Shown here piece after piece: positions 3,436-37,119 of a DNA stretch of 64,000 bases. The translations under genes and the position numbers were made by a program. The notes under the pieces are model-generated. The model searched no databases, was not told the origin of the DNA, and was given only the letters and a program-made list of their open reading frames with translations. The DNA lies in contig CACMQN010000001.1 of assembly GCA_902615855.1 (NCBI GenBank), positions 81,592 to 145,591 of the forward strand, in the 5' to 3' direction. The stretch is from an uncultured Candidatus Actinomarina sp. (GTDB lineage: Bacteria; Actinomycetota; Acidimicrobiia; Actinomarinales; Actinomarinaceae). Numbering within the stretch: position 1 is the stretch's first letter; each line of letters begins with the position of its first letter.

Positions 3436-3945
3436 ATGTACGAAAAAAAAATTTTTAGAAGTAACTTAAAAAAAGTTGATTACAAAGAATTTAATCTATC
3501 GAATAAAAATCAAAAATTTATATCAAAATTAATAGAAAGAAAAAAAATATGTACATATATTCCATTGGACTCTGAACTAAATATCAATTTATTCTTAAAT
3601 ACATTTTTAGAAATTCAAACAACTTTTCTTGATGATAATGAGTTGAATGTTTGTCTTTTGAAAGAACCTTTTGTAATCAACAAACTTAAAATTATGGAAC
3701 CACAAAATATAGAGATAGCTAACAGTACTGAAATATTTTTTGTACCAGGATTGGCATTTTCAAAATCTGGAGTACGACTCGGTAGGGGAAAGGGACTATA
3801 TGACAGACTTTTAGCAAGATATCCAAATTCAATAAAGGTAGGAATATGTTCAAGTTTAAATCTTTATGATAAGTTACCCCAAGAATCACACGATATACTA
3901 ATGGATTATGTTCTCACAGAGAACGAAAATTTTAAAATACATTAA
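3436..3945 (+). CDS. 5-formyltetrahydrofolate cyclo-ligase family protein
   Basis: C-terminal VPGLAFSKSGVRLGRGKGLYDRLL matches the family signature (G-x-G-x-G-x-YD-R). Confidence 0.7.
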   Translation: MYEKKIFRSNLKKVDYKEFNLSNKNQKFISKLIERKKICTYIPLDSELNINLFLNTFLEIQTTFLDDNELNVCLLKEPFVINKLKIMEPQNIEIANSTEIFFVPGLAFSKSGVRLGRGKGLYDRLLARYPNSIKVGICSSLNLYDKLPQESHDILMDYVLTENENFKIH

Positions 3946-3956
3946 AATTACAAACT

Positions 3957-4997
3957 ATGGATATAAGCATCAATGTTGGTTATTTTGGACCTCATATTTC
4001 AGAAGAGAAAGATTTAATAAAAAAATTAGACGATATAGGAGTAACTTGTGTCTGGACGGCTGAAGCTTATGGTTTCGATGCAGTAACACCTCTTGCATAT
4101 TTTTCCGCTTTGACTGAGAAGATGAATATTGGTTCAGGGATTATGCAAATTCCTGCAAGAACACCAGCAATGACAGCAATGACAGCTGTAACACTTGATC
4201 AAATGTCTAAAGGAAGATTTAGATTAGGTTTAGGTGTTTCAGGTCCACAGGTTGTGGAAGGTTGGCACGGTGTACCATATGGAAAGCCACTTAAAAAAAC
4301 TAGAGAATATGTAGAACTAGTTCGAAAAATTATTAGCAGGGATGGAAAAGTTGAACATCATGGCGATTATTATGATTTACCTTTAGAAGGTGATGGGACA
4401 ACAGGTTTAGGTAAGCCACTTAAGCTAATTGAGCAACCGTTCAGAAGTGAAATTCCAATATATTTAGCTGCAGTTGGATTGAAAAACGTAGAACTAACAG
4501 CCGAAATTGCGGAAGGATGGTTACCGTTTATGTACTCACCAATTAAGGGTGAGGATATCTATAAAGAATCTCTAAATAATGGATTCAAAAAATCTGGTGA
4601 CTCTGATAAAAAAAATAAATTTGAAATTGTTACAACTGTTTTTGGTCGTGTTTGCGAAGAGGATGAAATTGATCAATATCTATATCCCGCACGAAATATT
4701 TATACGCTATATGTTGGAGGTATGGGCGCAAAATCAAAAAACTTCTATTACAACTTATTTTGTGAATATGGGTATGAAGATATTGCAGATGAACTTCAAA
4801 ATCTTTATTTGAGCGGTAATAAAAAAGAATCTGAAGAACTTTTTCCAAAAGAGTTGTTAAATGAACTAACACTTGTAGGTACCAAAAAAGACATAGAAAA
4901 GAAATTGGAAACCTGGAAAGAAAGTAACATAACTGAGATATCTCTCTCGCTTCCAATTGATTTTGAAACGGTTAAATTTATAAAAGAATTATTGTGA
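3957..4997 (+). CDS. LLM-class (luciferase-like) flavin/F420-dependent oxidoreductase
   Basis: 346 aa with a luciferase-like TIM-barrel pattern (VWTAEAYGFDAVT, RFRLGLGVSGPQVVEGWHG). The cofactor (F420 or FMN) cannot be decided by eye. Its TGA stop overlaps the GTG start of the next gene (GTGA at 4994..4997). Confidence 0.7.
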   Translation: MDISINVGYFGPHISEEKDLIKKLDDIGVTCVWTAEAYGFDAVTPLAYFSALTEKMNIGSGIMQIPARTPAMTAMTAVTLDQMSKGRFRLGLGVSGPQVVEGWHGVPYGKPLKKTREYVELVRKIISRDGKVEHHGDYYDLPLEGDGTTGLGKPLKLIEQPFRSEIPIYLAAVGLKNVELTAEIAEGWLPFMYSPIKGEDIYKESLNNGFKKSGDSDKKNKFEIVTTVFGRVCEEDEIDQYLYPARNIYTLYVGGMGAKSKNFYYNLFCEYGYEDIADELQNLYLSGNKKESEELFPKELLNELTLVGTKKDIEKKLETWKESNITEISLSLPIDFETVKFIKELL

Positions 4998-12526: not shown

Positions 12527-13042
12527 TTAAAGGTCATGAATTACACTAGTAACAACACCCCAGATTTGTGCTTCACTTTTTCCATTCAACTCTATAGGCT
12601 CATAGTCTTCATTCTCAGGTTGCAAGACAACTGATGATCTTTTTTTAATATATCTTTTTACTGTTAGCTCACCATCAATTATTGCTATTACCACATTTCC
12701 ATTTTCGGCTTTGATGCTTTTATCGACTACCAAAATATCATTTGGGAATATTCCAGCGTTTATCATTGAATTTCCTGATGCCCTTACCAAAAATGTTGAT
12801 GCAGGATGTTTTACTAGATATTGGTTGAGGTCAATCTTGTCTTCTAAGTAGTCATCTGCAGGGGATGGGAAGCCTGCTGCAACTCGGTCTCCGTATAGAG
12901 GAATTTCGTAAAGGCCTTTACTTACTATTTCTGAAATGTATTTAACTTTACTTTCGGGTACGCGAATCGCTTTAGTTGCCTCGCCATACTTGCCTTGACC
13001 TCTAGGCCTTCCTGCTCCTTTTCTTGCTCCACCTTTTGGCAT
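12527..13042 (-). CDS. umuD: UmuD-like S24 self-cleaving peptidase with extended basic N-terminus
   Basis: Aligns by eye to E. coli UmuD (PLYGDRVAAGFPSPADDYLEDKIDLNQYL, ASGNSM Ser, TVKR Lys). It carries about 35 extra N-terminal residues, MPKGGARKGAGRPRGQGK... Confidence 0.8.
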   Translation of the reverse strand: MPKGGARKGAGRPRGQGKYGEATKAIRVPESKVKYISEIVSKGLYEIPLYGDRVAAGFPSPADDYLEDKIDLNQYLVKHPASTFLVRASGNSMINAGIFPNDILVVDKSIKAENGNVVIAIIDGELTVKRYIKKRSSVVLQPENEDYEPIELNGKSEAQIWGVVTSVIHDL

Positions 13043-13065
13043 AAAAATGTCTTTCTTTTATCTTA

Positions 13066-13083
13066 GAATAGTGTACAGTATTC
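13066..13083. promoter_or_regulatory. 18-nt imperfect palindrome GAATAGTGTACAGTATTC in the umuD-like/umuC divergent promoter region
   Basis: 16 of 18 positions are self-complementary. It overlaps a TAGAAT -10-like hexamer (13064..13069). It has no GAAC-N4-GTTC core. Confidence 0.4.
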
Positions 13084-13100
13084 AAAGAAATAAATAAAGA

Positions 13101-14366
13101 ATGAAAAATAAAATTTTTGCTTTAGTCGATTGTAATAACTTTTACGCATCTTGTGAGAGGGTGTTTAATCCAAAACTGGAAGGAAAACCTATCGTTGTTC
13201 TCTCAAACAACGATGGATGTATTGTTGCAAGATCAAATGAGGCAAAAGCGTTAGGCATTCCAATGGGTGCTCCACTATTTAAATATGAACAATTGATAAA
13301 GAGAAACAATGTCCATGTATTTTCATCGAACTATACATTTTATGGAGACATGTCAGCAAGAGTAATGACATCTTTACGATCAATAGTTGGAGACATCGAA
13401 ATCTATTCAATTGATGAAGCTTTTTTAGATATTAGCAAGTTTTATTATTGCGACTTAACGGAGACAGCGAATGAAATACGGAGACTAATAAAGCAGTGGA
13501 CAGGGATACCAATCTCGATTGGCATTGGACCCTCAAAAACCCTGGCAAAAGCTGCAAACAGACAAGCAAAAAAATATGAGGAATCAAATGTCTTTGATAT
13601 ACGTGAAGAGTCAGAGAGAGTACGAGTTCTAAAAGACCTCGAACTAGAAGATATATGGGGTATCTCAACAAGATGGGGTAGAAGACTAAGAAAAATTGGT
13701 ATCAATTCAGCATATGAACTCTCAACAGGAGATCCAAGACAGATACGAAAGACTCTGAGCATTGTAGGAGAGAGAATCTATCATGAGCTAAATGGCATAT
13801 CATGTATGCAAATTGAAGAAGTTAAAAATAAGAAAAACATAATTTCTTCAAAGTCGTTTGGGAAAAAAGTAACAAAAGTATATGAACTTGAAGAAGCTGT
13901 TTCAACATACGTTGCAAGAGCTTGTGAAAAGTTACGAGCTCAGAATTCAAGAGCTGGAGGTATTCACGTATTTTTAAGAACAAGTCCATTTATAGAAGAT
14001 GAAAGAAAATATAGCAATGGAATGAGCTCTTTCTTTACAATTCCAACTAGTAATACTTCAAAAATAATCAAAGAAGCGAAAAGATTAACAAATAAACTTT
14101 TTTTGCCAAATTATGAGTATCAGAAAATAGGCGTAATACTCTTGGATATATCTGATGCCAAATATGAACAGTTTAGCTTCTATGAGCATGAGAATTATGA
14201 GAGATCCGATATTCTCATGGATTCACTAGACCAGTTAAATGATAGATTTGGAAATGGAACTCTATTTATGGGAGCACAGGGAATTCAAAAAAACTGGAAA
14301 ATGCGAGCTGATAGAAAATCAGCTGCTTACACAACCAAATTGATAGACATTCCTAAAGTTGATTAA
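13101..14366 (+). CDS. umuC: Y-family DNA polymerase, UmuC-like (Pol V catalytic subunit)
   Basis: [51 protein letters not shown] and YSIDEAF are near-identical in pattern to the E. coli UmuC N-terminus. Confidence 0.9.
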
Positions 14367-31204: not shown

Positions 31205-32413
31205 ATGAAAATTGGTTTTTTAACAATTGGTACAGAAATATTGCTAGGGGATACAGTCAATACAAACCTAACGAACCTTGGCAAACGTTTATATGAAAAT
31301 GGATTTAAATTAGATAAAAATATTACTATTTCAGATCAAGTAGATGAAATTAATAATGCACTTAATTTTTTACTCAATGATTGTGATGTAGTTATCACTT
31401 CAGGAGGTCTTGGTCCTACCGAAGATGATATAACAAAGGAAACAATTTCTGAATCTTTATCATTGGAACTTGTTCTCGATGATGAACATTTAGAGTGGAT
31501 GAAAGAACGCTGGAAAGCTCGAGGGTTAATTATGCCTGAAACAAATATAAAGCAAGCTTATATTCCAGATGGTAGTGAAAAGCTAAACAACACTCAAGGA
31601 ACCGCACCTGGTATAAAAATTAATCATGACAATAAATTTATATTTATCTTTCCAGGTCCGCCAAGAGAGTTTATACCTCTTGTTGAGGATGAGTTGATCC
31701 CTTTTCTAAGTAAAAATTATGAAAAAGAAAATACGGATTATCAATTTGTTATGTTTTTTAATCAGGCAGAATCATCATTAGCTGCTGAAATAAATAAATT
31801 TAAACCAGAAGGTTTAGATATTGCTTATCTTGCAAGTAAAGGGATCATTAAATTACGATTTGATAAAAACTCTGTAACAAATGATCAATCTGATATGTTT
31901 CTGCAAAAAATAGGTGAAACATTTGAAGATGATATTTTGTCTTACAAAAATATAACAGTTGAAAAAGTACTTGGAAATTTAATTAGTGACTCAAACCTTC
32001 AAATCTCTTTTGTTGAAAGTATCACTGGGGGTTTGATTTCCTCATTGCTTGTTAAAAATCCAGGGATTAGTAAATACTTTATTGGTTCCGATATTGTTTA
32101 TACAAATGAATCAAAACATTTATTATTGAACGATGAAAATATTAATTTTGATGATTGGGAAGAATTAACATACAATCTTACAGAATCATCTTTAAATAAA
32201 TACAAATCTAGTGTAGCCCTTACAATTTTAGGGGAGGCAGGACCTATTTCATCTAGTCAATACCCTGTGGGAACAATCTTTATTTGTATTTCAAACGGAG
32301 AGAAAACAGTTATTTCGGACCATAAAATGAATGGAAATAGAGCCGAAATCTTAGAAAGAGCAGCAAATAAAGCTCAATGGGAATTGATTAAATTCATAAA
32401 AAACTTGTATTAG
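31205..32413 (+). CDS. cinA: CinA family protein (MoCF-binding domain plus nicotinamide-nucleotide amidohydrolase PncC domain)
   Basis: N-terminal IGTEILLGDTVNTN..TSGGLGPTEDDITKE and a C-terminal ESITGG block. Confidence 0.85.
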   Translation: MKIGFLTIGTEILLGDTVNTNLTNLGKRLYENGFKLDKNITISDQVDEINNALNFLLNDCDVVITSGGLGPTEDDITKETISESLSLELVLDDEHLEWMKERWKARGLIMPETNIKQAYIPDGSEKLNNTQGTAPGIKINHDNKFIFIFPGPPREFIPLVEDELIPFLSKNYEKENTDYQFVMFFNQAESSLAAEINKFKPEGLDIAYLASKGIIKLRFDKNSVTNDQSDMFLQKIGETFEDDILSYKNITVEKVLGNLISDSNLQISFVESITGGLISSLLVKNPGISKYFIGSDIVYTNESKHLLLNDENINFDDWEELTYNLTESSLNKYKSSVALTILGEAGPISSSQYPVGTIFICISNGEKTVISDHKMNGNRAEILERAANKAQWELIKFIKNLY

Positions 32414-32426
32414 AACAAATGTTCTA
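32411..32426. promoter_or_regulatory. LexA (Cheo-type) SOS box upstream of recA
   Basis: TAGAAC-AAAT-GTTCTA has perfect 6-nt inverted arms with the GAAC-N4-GTTC core. It overlaps the cinA stop codon and lies 62 nt upstream of the recA ATG. Confidence 0.75.
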
Positions 32427-32487: not shown

Positions 32488-33558
32488 ATGGATAAAGACA
32501 GGGCAAAAAAACTAGATACAGTTTTTGATCAAATAGAAAAACAATTCGGTGAAGGATCATTAATGAAACTTGGTGCCGATAACATCAAAAAAATACCAGC
32601 TATTTCTACAGGAGCACTTTCAATTGATTTAGCTTTAGGTATTGGTGGAGTTCCAAAAGGTAGAGTCATAGAAATTTATGGACCAGAAGCTTCAGGTAAA
32701 ACTACATTATCCCTTCATGTTGCAGCTGAAGCACAAAAAGCTGGGGGTGTAGCAGCATTTATTGATGCTGAACATGCTCTTGATCCCGTATATGCCAGAG
32801 CATTAGGCGTTGATGTTGATGAACTTCTTGTTTCTCAACCAGATACCGGCGAACAAGCGCTTGAAATTGCAGACATGTTAATTCAATCTGGAGGTGTAGA
32901 TCTAGTAGTTATTGACTCTGTTGCAGCATTAGTTCCAAAAGCTGAGATTGAAGGAGAAATGGGTGATACTCATGTTGGTCTTCAGGCACGATTGATGTCA
33001 CAAGCCTTGCGTAAATTAACTGGTTCAATCAATAAATCAGGTACAACTGTGATCTTTATTAACCAAATCCGTGAAAAAATTGGCGTTATGTGGGGATCTC
33101 CTGAAACAACCAGTGGTGGTAGAGCTCTTAAATTCTATTCATCTGTAAGGATTGATGTTAGAAGAATTGAAACATTAAAGGTTGGACCAGAACAAATAGG
33201 AAACCGTGTAAGAGCCAAGATCGTAAAAAATAAAGTTGCTCCACCTTTTAAGGAAGCAGAGTTTGATATTATGTTTGGTCAAGGTATATCCAGAGAAGGA
33301 AGCCTTTTAGATGTTGCAGTAGAGCACGGTATTGCTAGAAAAGCAGGAGCTTGGTTTACATATGATGAAGTTCAACTTGGTCAAGGTAAAGAGAATTCTA
33401 AGCGTTTTCTAAGAGAGAATCCCGACCTTGCTTTACAGCTAGAGACAGATGTTTATAAAGCTGTTGGTCTTATTGAATCAGATGAAATTGAAGTTGTTGA
33501 AGATGAATCAACTGAAAATGAAGATGAATCTGCAGAAGAGACTAAAAACAAAAAATAA
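32488..33558 (+). CDS. recA: recombinase RecA
   Basis: [10 protein letters not shown] Walker [11 protein letters not shown], the L1/L2 regions and an acidic C-tail. AAGGAG RBS upstream. Confidence 0.98.
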
Positions 33559-35798: not shown

Positions 35799-36519
35799 AT
35801 CTTATATGTCAGGAACAGGCAATGATTTTATATGTACTGAATATGATCGAGACTTGTCAGATATAGAAATTATTTCAATTGTTAGTGACTCACTTTTTCC
35901 TATCGATGGAGTGATATTGGTAGAGGGTATAGATGATTCAACTGTGAAAATGCATTATTTTAATAATGACGGAACTCCTGCTGAACTATGTGTAAATGGT
36001 GTACGTTGTACAGCAAAGTTTGCAGTAGACAATAACTTAGTAAATACTAAAAATTTAATTGTCAGAGCTCCAGTTGGTGATATAAAAGCATTTGTTGAAA
36101 ATAATTATGTAAAAATTGAAGCACCTTTTCCTACGACTGGTGGAAGTATCGAAATTGATAGTTACATATGTACGACTAGTGAAGTTGGAAATCCTCATCT
36201 TATGGTTGAAGTCGATGATGTAGAGAGATTTGATCTCGATAAATTTTCAGTAAATGCCAGAAAACTAGATGTATTTTCTAATGGTATAAATATTGAAATC
36301 TTTTCGGTTGTTGAACGCAAATTTATTTACGCAAGAGTAAACGAAAGGGGGGTTGGAGAGACAGACGCATGTGGTTCTGGAGCTTTAGCTTTGTTTACTT
36401 ATTTAAGAGAAATTAATAAAGTTGATGATAATGCAGTTGTTTTATATCCTGGTGGAGAGCTTGAACTATCTTATGAAAATGAAAAGTTGTATTTAAAAGG
36501 TGAAGTTACATATCTCTAA
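35788..36519 (+). CDS. dapF: diaminopimelate epimerase
   Basis: MSGTGNDFI, catalytic Cys contexts NGVRC and ETDACGSGA, GNPH. Confidence 0.85.
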   Translation: MVNESYMSGTGNDFICTEYDRDLSDIEIISIVSDSLFPIDGVILVEGIDDSTVKMHYFNNDGTPAELCVNGVRCTAKFAVDNNLVNTKNLIVRAPVGDIKAFVENNYVKIEAPFPTTGGSIEIDSYICTTSEVGNPHLMVEVDDVERFDLDKFSVNARKLDVFSNGINIEIFSVVERKFIYARVNERGVGETDACGSGALALFTYLREINKVDDNAVVLYPGGELELSYENEKLYLKGEVTYL

Positions 36520-37093
36520 TTAACGAAACAACTTTTCCTATAGGTTGTATATTTTCATTCACGAGAATTTTTTCATAGTTTTTATTTGCAGGTACTAGAT
36601 ATTGTTTACCCTGAATATTTTTGAGAAATTTAATAGTACCTTCTGAATTATTTATAAGAAATGCACCTATATCTCCATTTTTAATTGGTTCATTTTTATT
36701 AATAATAACTAAATCCTTTTCATGAATTCCCTCATCGATCATCGAATCTCCCGATACTGATAATGCAAATAGATTAGATTTTTCATTAGTATCTGGATAA
36801 TTCACAGTTCCTATAACGTTTTCTTCAGCCATAAGTAAAGATCCTGCAGCAATTTCTCCTAGTATCGGAATTTTCTTATTCGAAAGTTGGTTGTTTACAG
36901 TTAAAGCACGAGATTTTTTATAGTTTTTTTGGAGTAATCCTGATTGAATTAGTTTTTCAAGGTGATATTGAACTGTGCTTGTTGATTTAAGACTCACACC
37001 TTCGCAAATTTCTCTTACTGAAGGTGCAAATCCATTTTTTTCGATAAATATATTTATATAATTTAAAATATTTTTTTGTTTTTCAGACACCAC
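36506..37093 (-). CDS. lexA: SOS repressor LexA
   Basis: N-terminal winged-helix (GFAPSVREI..STSTVQYHLEKL), Ala-Gly cleavage site (GEIAAGS), VSGDSM Ser and IKFLK Lys. GTG start. Confidence 0.9.
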   Translation of the reverse strand: MVSEKQKNILNYINIFIEKNGFAPSVREICEGVSLKSTSTVQYHLEKLIQSGLLQKNYKKSRALTVNNQLSNKKIPILGEIAAGSLLMAEENVIGTVNYPDTNEKSNLFALSVSGDSMIDEGIHEKDLVIINKNEPIKNGDIGAFLINNSEGTIKFLKNIQGKQYLVPANKNYEKILVNENIQPIGKVVSLIRDM

Positions 37094-37103
37094 TACGCCA
37101 TAT

Positions 37104-37119
37104 TAGCACATATGTTCGA
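37104..37119. promoter_or_regulatory. LexA box (one-mismatch Cheo box) upstream of lexA
   Basis: TAGCAC-ATAT-GTTCGA compared with consensus TCGAAC-N4-GTTCGA. It lies 10 nt upstream of the lexA GTG, in the lexA/LysM divergent region. Confidence 0.6.

What the first reader, a model, noticed from the sequence alone, without database searches (positions are those of the whole stretch)
12527..14366. Divergent umuD-like / umuC pair with an AT-hook-like N-terminal extension on UmuD and a non-LexA palindrome in the shared promoter
UmuC is unmistakable. The S24 partner aligns to UmuD, with a putative cleavage site at A56-G57, the Ser in ASGNSM and the Lys in TVKR. It also carries about 35 extra N-terminal residues rich in Gly/Arg/Lys, with a GRP core (KGGARKGAGRPRGQGK) that resembles an AT-hook-type DNA-binding motif. 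The two genes are divergent (58-nt spacer) instead of forming the classical umuDC operon. The spacer has no GAAC-N4-GTTC LexA box like those at recA and lexA in this window. It has an 18-nt palindrome, GAATAGTGTACAGTATTC (13066..13083), overlapping a TAGAAT -10-like hexamer. Acinetobacter UmuDAb is an established precedent: an enlarged UmuD that acts as a self-cleaving repressor. This protein could similarly be an autonomous damage-responsive regulator of its own Pol V module, running in parallel to LexA. Actinobacteria generally use ImuA'-ImuB-DnaE2 for SOS mutagenesis, so a umuDC module here also suggests horizontal acquisition.
Basis: partly seen in the sequence, partly recalled or inferred. 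Interest (0 to 1): 0.6.

Follow-up and report, generated by a model that had tools for sequence, protein, structure and literature searches.

The report
UmuDAb-type self-repressing UmuD in Actinomarina
This tiny-genome marine actinobacterium keeps its only error-prone DNA polymerase (UmuC) next to a UmuD subunit with the same short N-terminal DNA-binding head as the Acinetobacter repressor UmuDAb, and a matching operator lies between the two genes, so the pair most likely switches itself on after DNA damage without LexA; the design is known but far more widespread than the literature says.

Summary
The window is from Candidatus Actinomarina (1.07 Mb, 32% GC). umuD (12527..13042, minus strand, 171 aa) and umuC (13101..14366, plus strand) are divergent, 58 nt apart.

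- **N-terminal extension:** it is real and under purifying selection. Its motif GGxRxGAGR[P/K]..ExTKxIRVPxS plus one helix occurs in 1,771 protein clusters from at least seven phyla.
- **Relation to UmuDAb:** it is the same N-terminal domain as in Acinetobacter baumannii UmuDAb (42% identity over the full length, E 9e-47). UmuDAb E24, whose mutation derepresses, aligns with the near-invariant E21 here.
- **Palindrome:** extended to 22 bp (13064..13085) it reads TTGA-N5-GTAC-N5-TCTA. It resembles the published UmuDAb operator TTGA-N4-GTWAC-N4-TCAA.
- **Palindrome conservation:** a similar site precedes 67 of 79 homologous genes (background 0.012 per 200 nt). It is identical in 12 Actinomarina spacers and unique in this genome.
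- **LexA:** the spacer has no LexA box. recA carries GAAC-N4-GTTC and lexA a one-mismatch copy.

Best reading: a RecA-dependent, LexA-independent, self-cleaving autorepressor that also supplies UmuD'. Binding and cleavage are untested. "AT-hook" fits only loosely. Ancient horizontal acquisition is supported.

This is a known kind in a new lineage. The scan reached the same conclusion earlier on other genomes, including other Actinomarina.

The parts
12527..13042 (-). umuD-ext: a 171-aa UmuDAb-type UmuD, consisting of an N-terminal DNA-binding head and an S24 self-cleaving domain
   Evidence: ORF. Pfam S24 and NCBIfam UmuD hits. 42% identical to A. baumannii UmuDAb over the full length, E 9e-47.
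12908..13042 (-). N-terminal domain, residues 1-45. It has a Gly/Arg arm (GGARKGAGRPRG), an extended segment (E21-x-T23-K-x-I-R27-V-P29-E-S31) and a helix at 30-42.
   Evidence: G4 G5 R7 A10 G11 R12 R27 P29 are invariant in 58 homologues. A profile of this part alone finds 1,771 clusters at E<=0.001. In the AF2 model residues 1-29 are coil and 30-42 helix. Against other Actinomarina, 13-20 of the 45 codons differ synonymously and 5-12 nonsynonymously.
12872..12877 (-). Codons of the predicted self-cleavage bond A56-G57
   Evidence: Aligns with UmuD C24-G25 and UmuDAb A83-G84. Invariant.
12767..12769 (-). Codon of the catalytic Ser92
   Evidence: Aligns with UmuD S60. Invariant.
12656..12658 (-). 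Codon of the catalytic Lys129
   Evidence: Aligns with UmuD K97. Invariant.
13043..13100 (.). 58-nt divergent umuD/umuC control region
13064..13085 (.). Predicted operator. In the umuD orientation it reads TTGAATACTGTACACTATTCTA: arms TTGA/TCTA and a GTAC core at 13073..13076.
   Evidence: The 24-nt block containing it is identical in all 12 Actinomarina spacers. It is the only site with up to 1 mismatch in the own genome. Related sites lie upstream of 67/79 homologues. It resembles the UmuDAb operator.
13036..13064 (+). Promoter-like match for umuC (TTGGCA-17-TATCTT). Its -10 abuts the operator. This is a consensus match only.
13101..14366 (+). umuC, the only Y-family polymerase found in this genome
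32488..33558 (+). recA, the presumed co-protease for cleavage. A LexA box, GAACAAATGTTC, lies at 32413..32424.
36506..37093 (-). Canonical lexA (LexA_DNA_bind + S24) with a one-mismatch box, GAACATATGTGC, at 37106..37117. This is a separate circuit.

Best explanation
The 171-aa protein is a member of the UmuDAb family: a UmuD whose N-terminal ~45 residues form a small DNA-binding head.

Proposed mechanism (all steps inferred):
1. As an intact dimer, held together by the S24 domains, it binds the 22-bp operator at 13064..13085 in the 58-nt spacer. This represses both divergent genes, umuD and umuC.
2. After DNA damage, RecA filaments stimulate self-cleavage at A56-G57 by the Ser92/Lys129 dyad.
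3. Cleavage detaches the heads from the dimer, so repression is lost.
4. The same cut produces UmuD' (residues 57-171), which assembles with UmuC into Pol V.

The circuit depends on RecA but not on LexA. LexA exists in this genome and uses GAAC-N4-GTTC boxes elsewhere.

Shown here: gene structure, homology to UmuDAb in both domains, conservation of head and operator, their co-occurrence across phyla, uniqueness of the operator in the genome, and absence of a LexA box.

Inferred, not shown: DNA binding, repression, cleavage and Pol V assembly.
For: 1. **Homology to UmuDAb.** A. baumannii UmuDAb (L086:1453-2064, 203 aa) aligns over its whole length with the window protein (42% identity, E 9e-47). 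The alignment includes HGGARENAGRKAQFNEPTKVIRVPESQVNFI against KGGARKGAGRPRGQGKYGEATKAIRVPESKVKYI. Translating the published A. baylyi mutagenic primers gives the same stretch, with consistent residue numbers.
2. **Published function of that domain.** In Acinetobacter, deleting the N-terminal domain, E24K, or K40P/R41P each derepress (PMC4807011). E24 aligns with E21, which is conserved in at least 90% of 58 homologues.
3. **Operator.** Purified UmuDAb binds TTGA(N4)GTWAC(N4)TCAA, and the GTWAC core matters most (PMC11332147). The window site has the same arms and core type.
4. **Co-inheritance of gene and site.** An operator-like site lies within 200 nt upstream of 67 of 79 extended umuD genes, from Actinomycetota, Chloroflexota, Alpha- and Gammaproteobacteria, Cyanobacteriota, Planctomycetota, Verrucomicrobiota and KSB1. 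Background is 0.012 per 200 nt. An unbiased 6-mer count in non-Actinomarina loci ranks TGTACA first, at 12-fold enrichment.
5. **No third shared gene.** Only umuD (75 loci) and umuC (64 loci) are shared across the loci. No other conserved gene could encode an alternative regulator.
6. **Constraint on the site.** The 24-nt operator block is identical in 12 Actinomarina spacers whose UmuD proteins are 70-79% identical. About 40% of codons in those genes carry synonymous changes.
7. **A local site.** The site is unique in the own genome.
8. **Trans-acting sites elsewhere.** Where umuC is detached from umuD (L036) it has its own operator. In A. baumannii the UmuDs that lack this head also carry the operator upstream. 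Published work says UmuDAb represses those umuDC operons, so head and repressor role go together.
9. **Dual role has precedent.** Full-length UmuDAb (UmuD1389) is cleaved and gives mutagenically active Pol V (PMC13062779).
Against: - No experiment exists for this protein or for any non-Acinetobacter member.
- The operator geometry differs from the Acinetobacter one. Spacing is N5 rather than N4, the core is 4 bp (GTAC) rather than 5 bp, and one arm is TCTA rather than TCAA.
- UmuDAb has a roughly 30-residue linker and a co-repressor, DdrR. Both are missing here, so short forms might bind more weakly or not at all.
- The AF2 model shows only one helix in the head, with moderate confidence (pLDDT 51-84). 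It gives no recognisable DNA-binding fold.
- No convincing sigma-70-type promoter for umuD was found inside the spacer, so how the site blocks umuD transcription is unclear.
Confidence: 0.75

Rival explanations
1. The palindrome is bound by a different, host-encoded regulator. The N-terminal head of UmuD does something else, for example non-specific DNA or nucleoid tethering, or an interaction with RecA filaments or the beta clamp.
For: Binding was not tested. The head is short, Gly/Arg-rich and mostly coil in the AF2 model, which would suit non-specific contacts. No Pfam DNA-binding family matches it.
Against: Head and palindrome co-occur across at least seven phyla, and the loci share no third gene. 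The homologous head of UmuDAb is required for repression, and UmuDAb binds the homologous operator in vitro. The site is unique in the genome, as expected for a dedicated local regulator.
Confidence: 0.1
2. The conserved block is mainly a promoter (-35/-10 elements of two back-to-back promoters) that is conserved for transcription initiation. umuDC would be constitutive or controlled only post-translationally by UmuD cleavage.
For: The block overlaps TAGAAT and a promoter-like match. In Acinetobacter the TTGAAA arms double as -35 boxes. In several Gammaproteobacteria the core TGTTACAAT looks like an extended -10.
Against: The conserved features are dyad-symmetric arms plus a palindromic GTAC/GTWAC core, across lineages with very different promoter usage. 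Promoter elements alone do not explain the symmetry, or the same site in front of detached umuC genes. The two roles are not exclusive, since operators commonly overlap promoters.
Confidence: 0.08
3. The umuDC pair is under the host LexA through a non-canonical site.
For: LexA and RecA are encoded 20-24 kb away. umuDC is LexA-controlled in many bacteria.
Against: No GAAC-N4-GTTC-like site with up to 2 mismatches lies in or near the spacer, while recA and lexA have such boxes. The same palindrome precedes homologues in phyla whose LexA motifs differ from one another. It also occurs in Acinetobacter, which lacks LexA.
Confidence: 0.03
4. The palindrome acts as an RNA hairpin in the 5' leaders (attenuator or stability element) rather than as a DNA operator.
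For: A 16/18 inverted repeat can fold. It would lie in one or both leaders.
Against: Specific bases (TTGA, GTAC, TCAA) are conserved rather than pairing. The variable inner positions are not complementary (C/C in Actinomarina, G/A elsewhere) and show no compensatory change. The centre alternates between GTAC and GTWAC, which suits a dimeric protein site.
Confidence: 0.03

Closest known systems
UmuDAb of Acinetobacter baumannii / A. baylyi (A1S_1389 / ACIAD2729)
   Same: - It has the same two-domain design: a homologous N-terminal head (GGxRxxAGR..ExTKxIRVPESxVxxI) on a UmuD-type S24 domain with an Ala-Gly site and a Ser/Lys dyad.
- Identity is 42% over the full length.
- The operator has TTGA/TCAA arms and a GT(W)AC core inside a divergent promoter region.
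- In Acinetobacter the protein also yields an active UmuD'.
   Different: - It is 171 aa rather than 203 aa. The roughly 30-residue linker between head and cleavage region is absent, and the loop between AGR and ExT is 3 residues longer here.
- The operator is 22 bp (N5, GTAC core, one TCTA arm) rather than 21 bp (N4, GTWAC).
- The divergent partner is umuC itself, not ddrR.
- No DdrR homologue was found.
- The host has a canonical LexA, whereas Acinetobacter has none.
- It is the genome's only UmuD.
E. coli UmuD (Pol V accessory subunit)
   Same: - The S24 domain, the cleavage region (xPLF/Y..V.(C/A)GFPSPA) and the catalytic residues match (phmmer E 6.7e-34).
- It is paired with UmuC.
   Different: - E. 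coli UmuD has only 24 residues before the cleavage site, and no DNA-binding role is known for it.
- umuDC there is one operon under a LexA box. Here the genes are divergent and there is no LexA box.
LexA
   Same: - It follows the same logic: a dimeric S24 repressor inactivated by RecA-stimulated self-cleavage between a DNA-binding head and a dimerisation domain.
   Different: - The head here has no LexA_DNA_bind winged helix. Pfam finds only S24, and the AF2 model shows a single helix.
- It appears to control one local site rather than a regulon.
HdiR (Streptococcaceae) and the non-canonical LexA-like repressors of Bacteroidetes
   Same: - These are non-LexA S24 repressors that control mainly error-prone polymerases (PMC8565304).
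   Different: - Those are related to phage cI-type repressors with HTH heads. This protein is a UmuD with an unrelated head.

Membership tests
UmuDAb-type self-cleaving UmuD repressors | C-terminal S24 domain of UmuD type (closer to UmuD than to LexA) | tested here: met
   NF007621 (UmuD) scores 165.6 bits against a cut-off of 110. LexA TIGR00498 scores 109.1, below its 110.95 cut-off. The best PDB match is UmuD, 6.7e-34.
UmuDAb-type self-cleaving UmuD repressors | Ala-Gly cleavage bond with a Ser/Lys catalytic dyad | tested here: met
   A56-G57, S92 and K129 are aligned and invariant.
UmuDAb-type self-cleaving UmuD repressors | N-terminal domain homologous to that of UmuDAb | tested here: met
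   Direct alignment with A. baumannii UmuDAb and with the A. baylyi stretch decoded from published primers. The functionally tested E24 aligns with E21.
UmuDAb-type self-cleaving UmuD repressors | Operator TTGA(N4)GTWAC(N4)TCAA in its own promoter region | tested here: inconclusive
   The arms and palindromic core are of the same type, but the site reads TTGA-N5-GTAC-N5-TCTA, one bp longer overall. The literal Acinetobacter pattern is not matched. Family-wide the site varies between 21, 22 and 23 bp.
UmuDAb-type self-cleaving UmuD repressors | Specific DNA binding, repression, and RecA-stimulated self-cleavage | not testable with these tools
   Needs EMSA, reporter and cleavage assays.
UmuDAb-type self-cleaving UmuD repressors | DdrR co-repressor (an Acinetobacter accessory, not a property of the protein family) | tested here: not met
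   The A. baumannii DdrR ORF finds nothing in the own genome at E<=1. The genome is only 82.8% complete and DdrR is small, so absence is probable rather than proven.
Classical LexA-controlled umuDC operon (Pol V) | UmuC Y-family polymerase with IMS, IMS_C and DUF4113 | tested here: met
   NF002955 scores 416 bits against a cut-off of 431.
Classical LexA-controlled umuDC operon (Pol V) | umuD and umuC co-transcribed from one promoter with a LexA box | tested here: not met
   The genes are divergent. There is no LexA-type box with up to 2 mismatches.
Canonical AT-hook | R-G-R-P core flanked by basic residues | tested here: not met
   The core is A10-G11-R12-P13. The Pro is Lys in many members including UmuDAb. 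Pfam AT_hook gives no hit. Only a loose resemblance remains.
LexA | LexA_DNA_bind winged-helix N-terminal domain | tested here: not met
   Pfam finds only S24 in this protein. The true LexA of the window has that domain.

The most novel reading that the evidence does not exclude
The roughly 40-residue head (Gly/Arg arm, extended ExTKxIRVP segment, single helix) is an uncatalogued DNA-binding module, not the LexA-like winged helix modelled for UmuDAb. Together with its TTGA..GT(W)AC..TCAA operator and umuC it forms a self-contained mutagenesis cassette that moves horizontally. The cassette brings its own damage switch and works in hosts with or without LexA, across at least seven phyla. In Actinomarina one bidirectional operator and one protein would serve as repressor, damage sensor and polymerase subunit for the genome's only translesion polymerase.
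Probability: 0.45. Interest if true: 0.6.

Novelty: new member of a known kind. Interest (0 to 1): 0.5.

Why it matters
The UmuDAb literature treats this repressor as an oddity of Acinetobacter, a genus without LexA ('unique to A. baumannii', 'Moraxellaceae').

Here the same head-plus-operator design is a core gene of a streamlined marine actinobacterial order that does have LexA. It also occurs in 1,771 protein clusters from many phyla, including plasmids of Legionella, Synechococcus and Acinetobacter.

Three consequences follow:
- Control of error-prone polymerases by a self-cleaving UmuD would be a general, portable solution rather than a lineage-specific patch.
- The minimal DNA-binding unit would be much smaller than the modelled winged helix.
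- Short natural variants like this one would be simple subjects for structural and biochemical work on how UmuDAb recognises its unusual operator.

Tried and rejected
- **A mistaken LexA box.** I first read a recurring in-frame 'CYNIQM' upstream of gammaproteobacterial homologues as a CTGT-N8-ACAG LexA box (after). The raw DNA showed it is the same palindrome, TTGAATAATGTTACAATATTCAA, so I dropped that idea.
- **Acinetobacter counter-example.** I worried that the other enlarged A. baumannii UmuDs (164 aa), which do not self-repress, might carry the same head. They do not. Their N-termini are unrelated, and they carry the operator for control in trans.
- **Promoter mapping.** The consensus scan gave only a weak umuC promoter-like match and nothing for umuD in the spacer. 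This is inconclusive.
- **Other copies of the operator.** Exact and degenerate scans of the own genome found only chance-level 2-mismatch sites.
- **Head-operator covariation.** I looked by eye for a link between head sequence (GRP or GRK, loop length) and operator length (21, 22 or 23 bp). No simple rule emerged.
- **Donor lineage.** The UmuC tree nests Actinomarina among marine Alphaproteobacteria and one Dehalococcoidia MAG. Support is only 82-90 SH-aLRT and the tree is unrooted, so no donor is named.
- **Literature.** No paper describes UmuDAb-type proteins outside Acinetobacter/Moraxellaceae in the library searched.
Full report
**What is there**

The window belongs to a Candidatus Actinomarina genome: 1.07 Mb in 20 contigs, 32% GC, 82.8% complete.
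- At 12527..13042 on the minus strand lies a 171-aa ORF with a Peptidase_S24 domain (E 3.1e-33). It passes the NCBIfam UmuD model at 165.6 bits against a cut-off of 110.
- At 13101..14366 on the plus strand lies a 421-aa UmuC with IMS, IMS_C and DUF4113.
- The two start codons are 58 nt apart.
- The cleavage bond A56-G57, Ser92 and Lys129 align with UmuD C24-G25, S60 and K97.
At up to 3 mismatches it is expected 0.08 times by chance in the window.
- recA (32488..33558) has an exact GAACAAATGTTC 64 nt upstream of its start. lexA (36506..37093, with LexA_DNA_bind + S24) has GAACATATGTGC 13 nt upstream of its start.
- The umuD/umuC spacer has nothing like these boxes, even with two mismatches allowed.

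**The N-terminal extension is real and widely conserved**

Homologues of exactly this length and at 58-62% identity come from Gammaproteobacteria, Dehalococcoidia and other MAGs. In them the first 31 residues are among the best conserved of the whole protein.

In 58 diverse sequences, G4 G5 R7 A10 G11 R12 R27 P29 are invariant. G9, E21, T23 and S31 are conserved in at least 90%.

Between Actinomarina genomes, 13-20 of the 45 N-terminal codons differ synonymously and 5-12 nonsynonymously, much as in the rest of the gene. The stretch is therefore translated and under purifying selection.

A profile of the 42 N-terminal residues alone finds 1,771 clusters (50% identity) at E<=0.001 and 391 at E<=1e-10 among 1.84 billion representatives. 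The match is nearly always at the N-terminus. Of 63 such proteins of at least 100 aa, 50 carry Peptidase_S24, and no Pfam family covers the head itself.

**It is the UmuDAb head**

I recalled that the Acinetobacter operator looks similar, and tested the idea in two independent ways.
1. The mutagenic primers published for A. baylyi umuDAb (PMC4807011, Table 2) translate to residues 17-46, GRKAKYQEPTKVIRVPESQVAFIKRWLLDN. The numbering agrees with the primer names.
2. A tblastn with that stretch found A. baumannii chromosomes filed as plasmids in PLSDB. The 203-aa UmuDAb there begins MPKKKEFEHGGARENAGRKAQFNEPTKVIRVPESQVNFIKNWLL.

BLASTP against the window protein gives 42% identity over the full length (E 9e-47), with the heads aligned. 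UmuDAb has about 30 extra linker residues after the head helix.

In Acinetobacter, deleting the N-terminal domain, E24K, and K40P/R41P all derepress. E24 corresponds to the near-invariant E21 here.

The operon-encoded A. baumannii UmuDs of 164 aa have a different N-terminus. They carry the operator upstream, and published work says UmuDAb represses those umuDC operons. In the one studied system, possession of the head therefore coincides with the repressor role.

**The palindrome is the family's operator**

The published UmuDAb site is TTGA(N4)GTWAC(N4)TCAA, and its core is the most important part (PMC11332147). I read it directly upstream of A. baumannii umuDAb as TTGAAAATGTAACTTTTTCAA.

Extended to 22 bp (13064..13085), the window site reads TTGAATACTGTACACTATTCTA in the umuD orientation. 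It has the same arms and a palindromic GTAC core, with one more base between arm and core.

Printing the 150 nt upstream of all 79 related genes showed the same element in almost every lineage.
- A pattern scan finds it, with up to 3 mismatches, within 200 nt upstream in 67 of 79 loci. Background elsewhere in the loci is 0.012 per 200 nt.
- That scan is partly circular, so I also ranked all 6-mers without any model. TGTACA, ATGTAC, CGTACA and GTAACA/GTTACA are the most enriched words upstream of the non-Actinomarina genes, up to 12-fold.
- Sites come as 22-bp (GTAC) and 23-bp (GTWAC) versions, and as 21-bp versions in Acinetobacter.

In 12 Actinomarina spacers the 24-nt block TTTGAATACTGTACACTATTCTAA is identical. 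The adjacent proteins are only 70-79% identical.

The site is unique in the own genome. Across the 75 loci, only umuD and umuC are shared gene families, so no other linked regulator exists.

The conserved features are particular bases, not pairing. The inner variable positions are non-complementary and show no compensation, which argues against an RNA hairpin.

**Gene order and origin**

The divergent arrangement is found in all Actinomarina loci. Almost everywhere else umuD is followed by umuC on the same strand. Where umuC is detached (L036), it has its own operator.

The gene is present in 58 of 64 Actinomarinales genomes, and in 12 of 12 that are at least 90% complete. It was not found in 153 genomes of 40 other Acidimicrobiia families sampled.

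In a UmuC tree the Actinomarina sequences form one clade (100 SH-aLRT). That clade is nested among marine Alphaproteobacteria and a Dehalococcoidia MAG, with modest support (82-90) and no root. This fits a single old horizontal acquisition followed by vertical descent. The donor cannot be named.

The own genome shows only this one Y-family polymerase and one PolIII alpha subunit. No ImuB or DnaE2 was found, with the caveat of 82.8% completeness.

**Structure**

With a 58-sequence alignment, AlphaFold2 gives a confident S24 core. For the head it gives coil for residues 1-29 and one helix at 30-42 (pLDDT 51-84).

That is too small for the LexA-like winged helix proposed for UmuDAb. Since most family members lack the UmuDAb linker, the conserved binding unit is probably arm + extended segment + one helix.

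The 'AT-hook' resemblance is weak. The core is AGRP, and the Pro is Lys in many members including UmuDAb.

**Mechanism proposed**

The mechanism is inferred by homology.
1. The intact dimer sits on the single operator between the two genes and represses both.
2. RecA filaments trigger cleavage at A56-G57.
3. The heads fall off the dimer, and the cut product is UmuD' for Pol V.

Full-length UmuDAb has been shown to be processed into a mutagenically active Pol V subunit (PMC13062779), so the dual role has precedent. Here it would be obligatory, because this is the only UmuD in the genome.

LexA runs a separate circuit, which includes at least recA and lexA.

**Limits**

- Nothing here shows binding, repression or cleavage.
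- Promoter positions are uncertain.
- No DdrR homologue was found.
- Transcript data could not be consulted.
- The literature library holds no description of this family outside Acinetobacter.
- Earlier agents of this scan reached the same reading on other genomes, including other Actinomarina. I checked the key claims myself and treat their notes only as agreement, not as evidence.

Noticed in passing
L078:976-1083 and 1096-2883 (Pseudanabaena MAG): Two operator-like sites (TTGATTATTGTACGTAAATCAA and TTGATAAGTGTACTCTAATCAA) precede a glyoxalase/bleomycin-resistance-like gene. That gene is followed by umuC and the extended umuD. This may be a small damage regulon beyond Pol V.
   Followed up: partly
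L034:3686-3707 and 3715-4257 (Pseudanabaena minima chromosome); also L033:3705: A second good operator copy lies just downstream of the extended umuD and in front of a 180-aa ORF with no Pfam match. No umuC is present in this locus.
   Followed up: partly
L036:2139-2160 (Legionellaceae MAG): umuC is detached and on the opposite strand. It has its own operator-like site (TTGATTTGTGAGCAGATATCAA) immediately upstream.
   Followed up: partly
P0141, P0203, P0122 (metagenomic proteins): The N-terminal head motif occasionally occurs with a non-S24 C-terminus or in the middle of a protein. Of 63 head-bearing proteins of at least 100 aa, 13 lack a Peptidase_S24 hit. These could be a portable module, or fragments and misassemblies.
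   Followed up: partly
Plasmids of Legionella (e.g. NC_006366.1), Synechococcus elongatus (e.g. NZ_CP033063.1) and Acinetobacter (L093, CP059478.1): Extended UmuD genes of this family are plasmid-borne in cultivated bacteria. The Acinetobacter plasmid copy (190 aa) has the head and an operator, TTAATTATGTTACATAATCAA, in front of a umuDC operon.
   Followed up: partly
G000 whole genome: Only one Y-family polymerase (this UmuC) and one PolIII alpha subunit were found. There is no DinB, ImuB or DnaE2 in the 82.8%-complete assembly.
   Followed up: partly
window 13189..13216: An 11-bp inverted repeat (CTATCGTTGTT..AACAACGATGG) lies inside the umuC coding region, over the conserved [10 protein letters not shown] motif. 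The terminator scan flagged it on both strands. It is probably a by-product of the coding sequence.
   Followed up: no
L003:296-799 (G000 contig C10): The third weak S24 hit in the genome is a membrane-anchored signal-peptidase-I-like protein (GDNRxxSxDS). It is unrelated to the SOS system.
   Followed up: partly
PLSDB records NZ_CP104448.1, NZ_CP064203.1, NZ_CP077849.1: These 3.7-4.1 Mb Acinetobacter baumannii records are filed as plasmids but are evidently chromosomes. This is how UmuDAb could be fetched.
   Followed up: no
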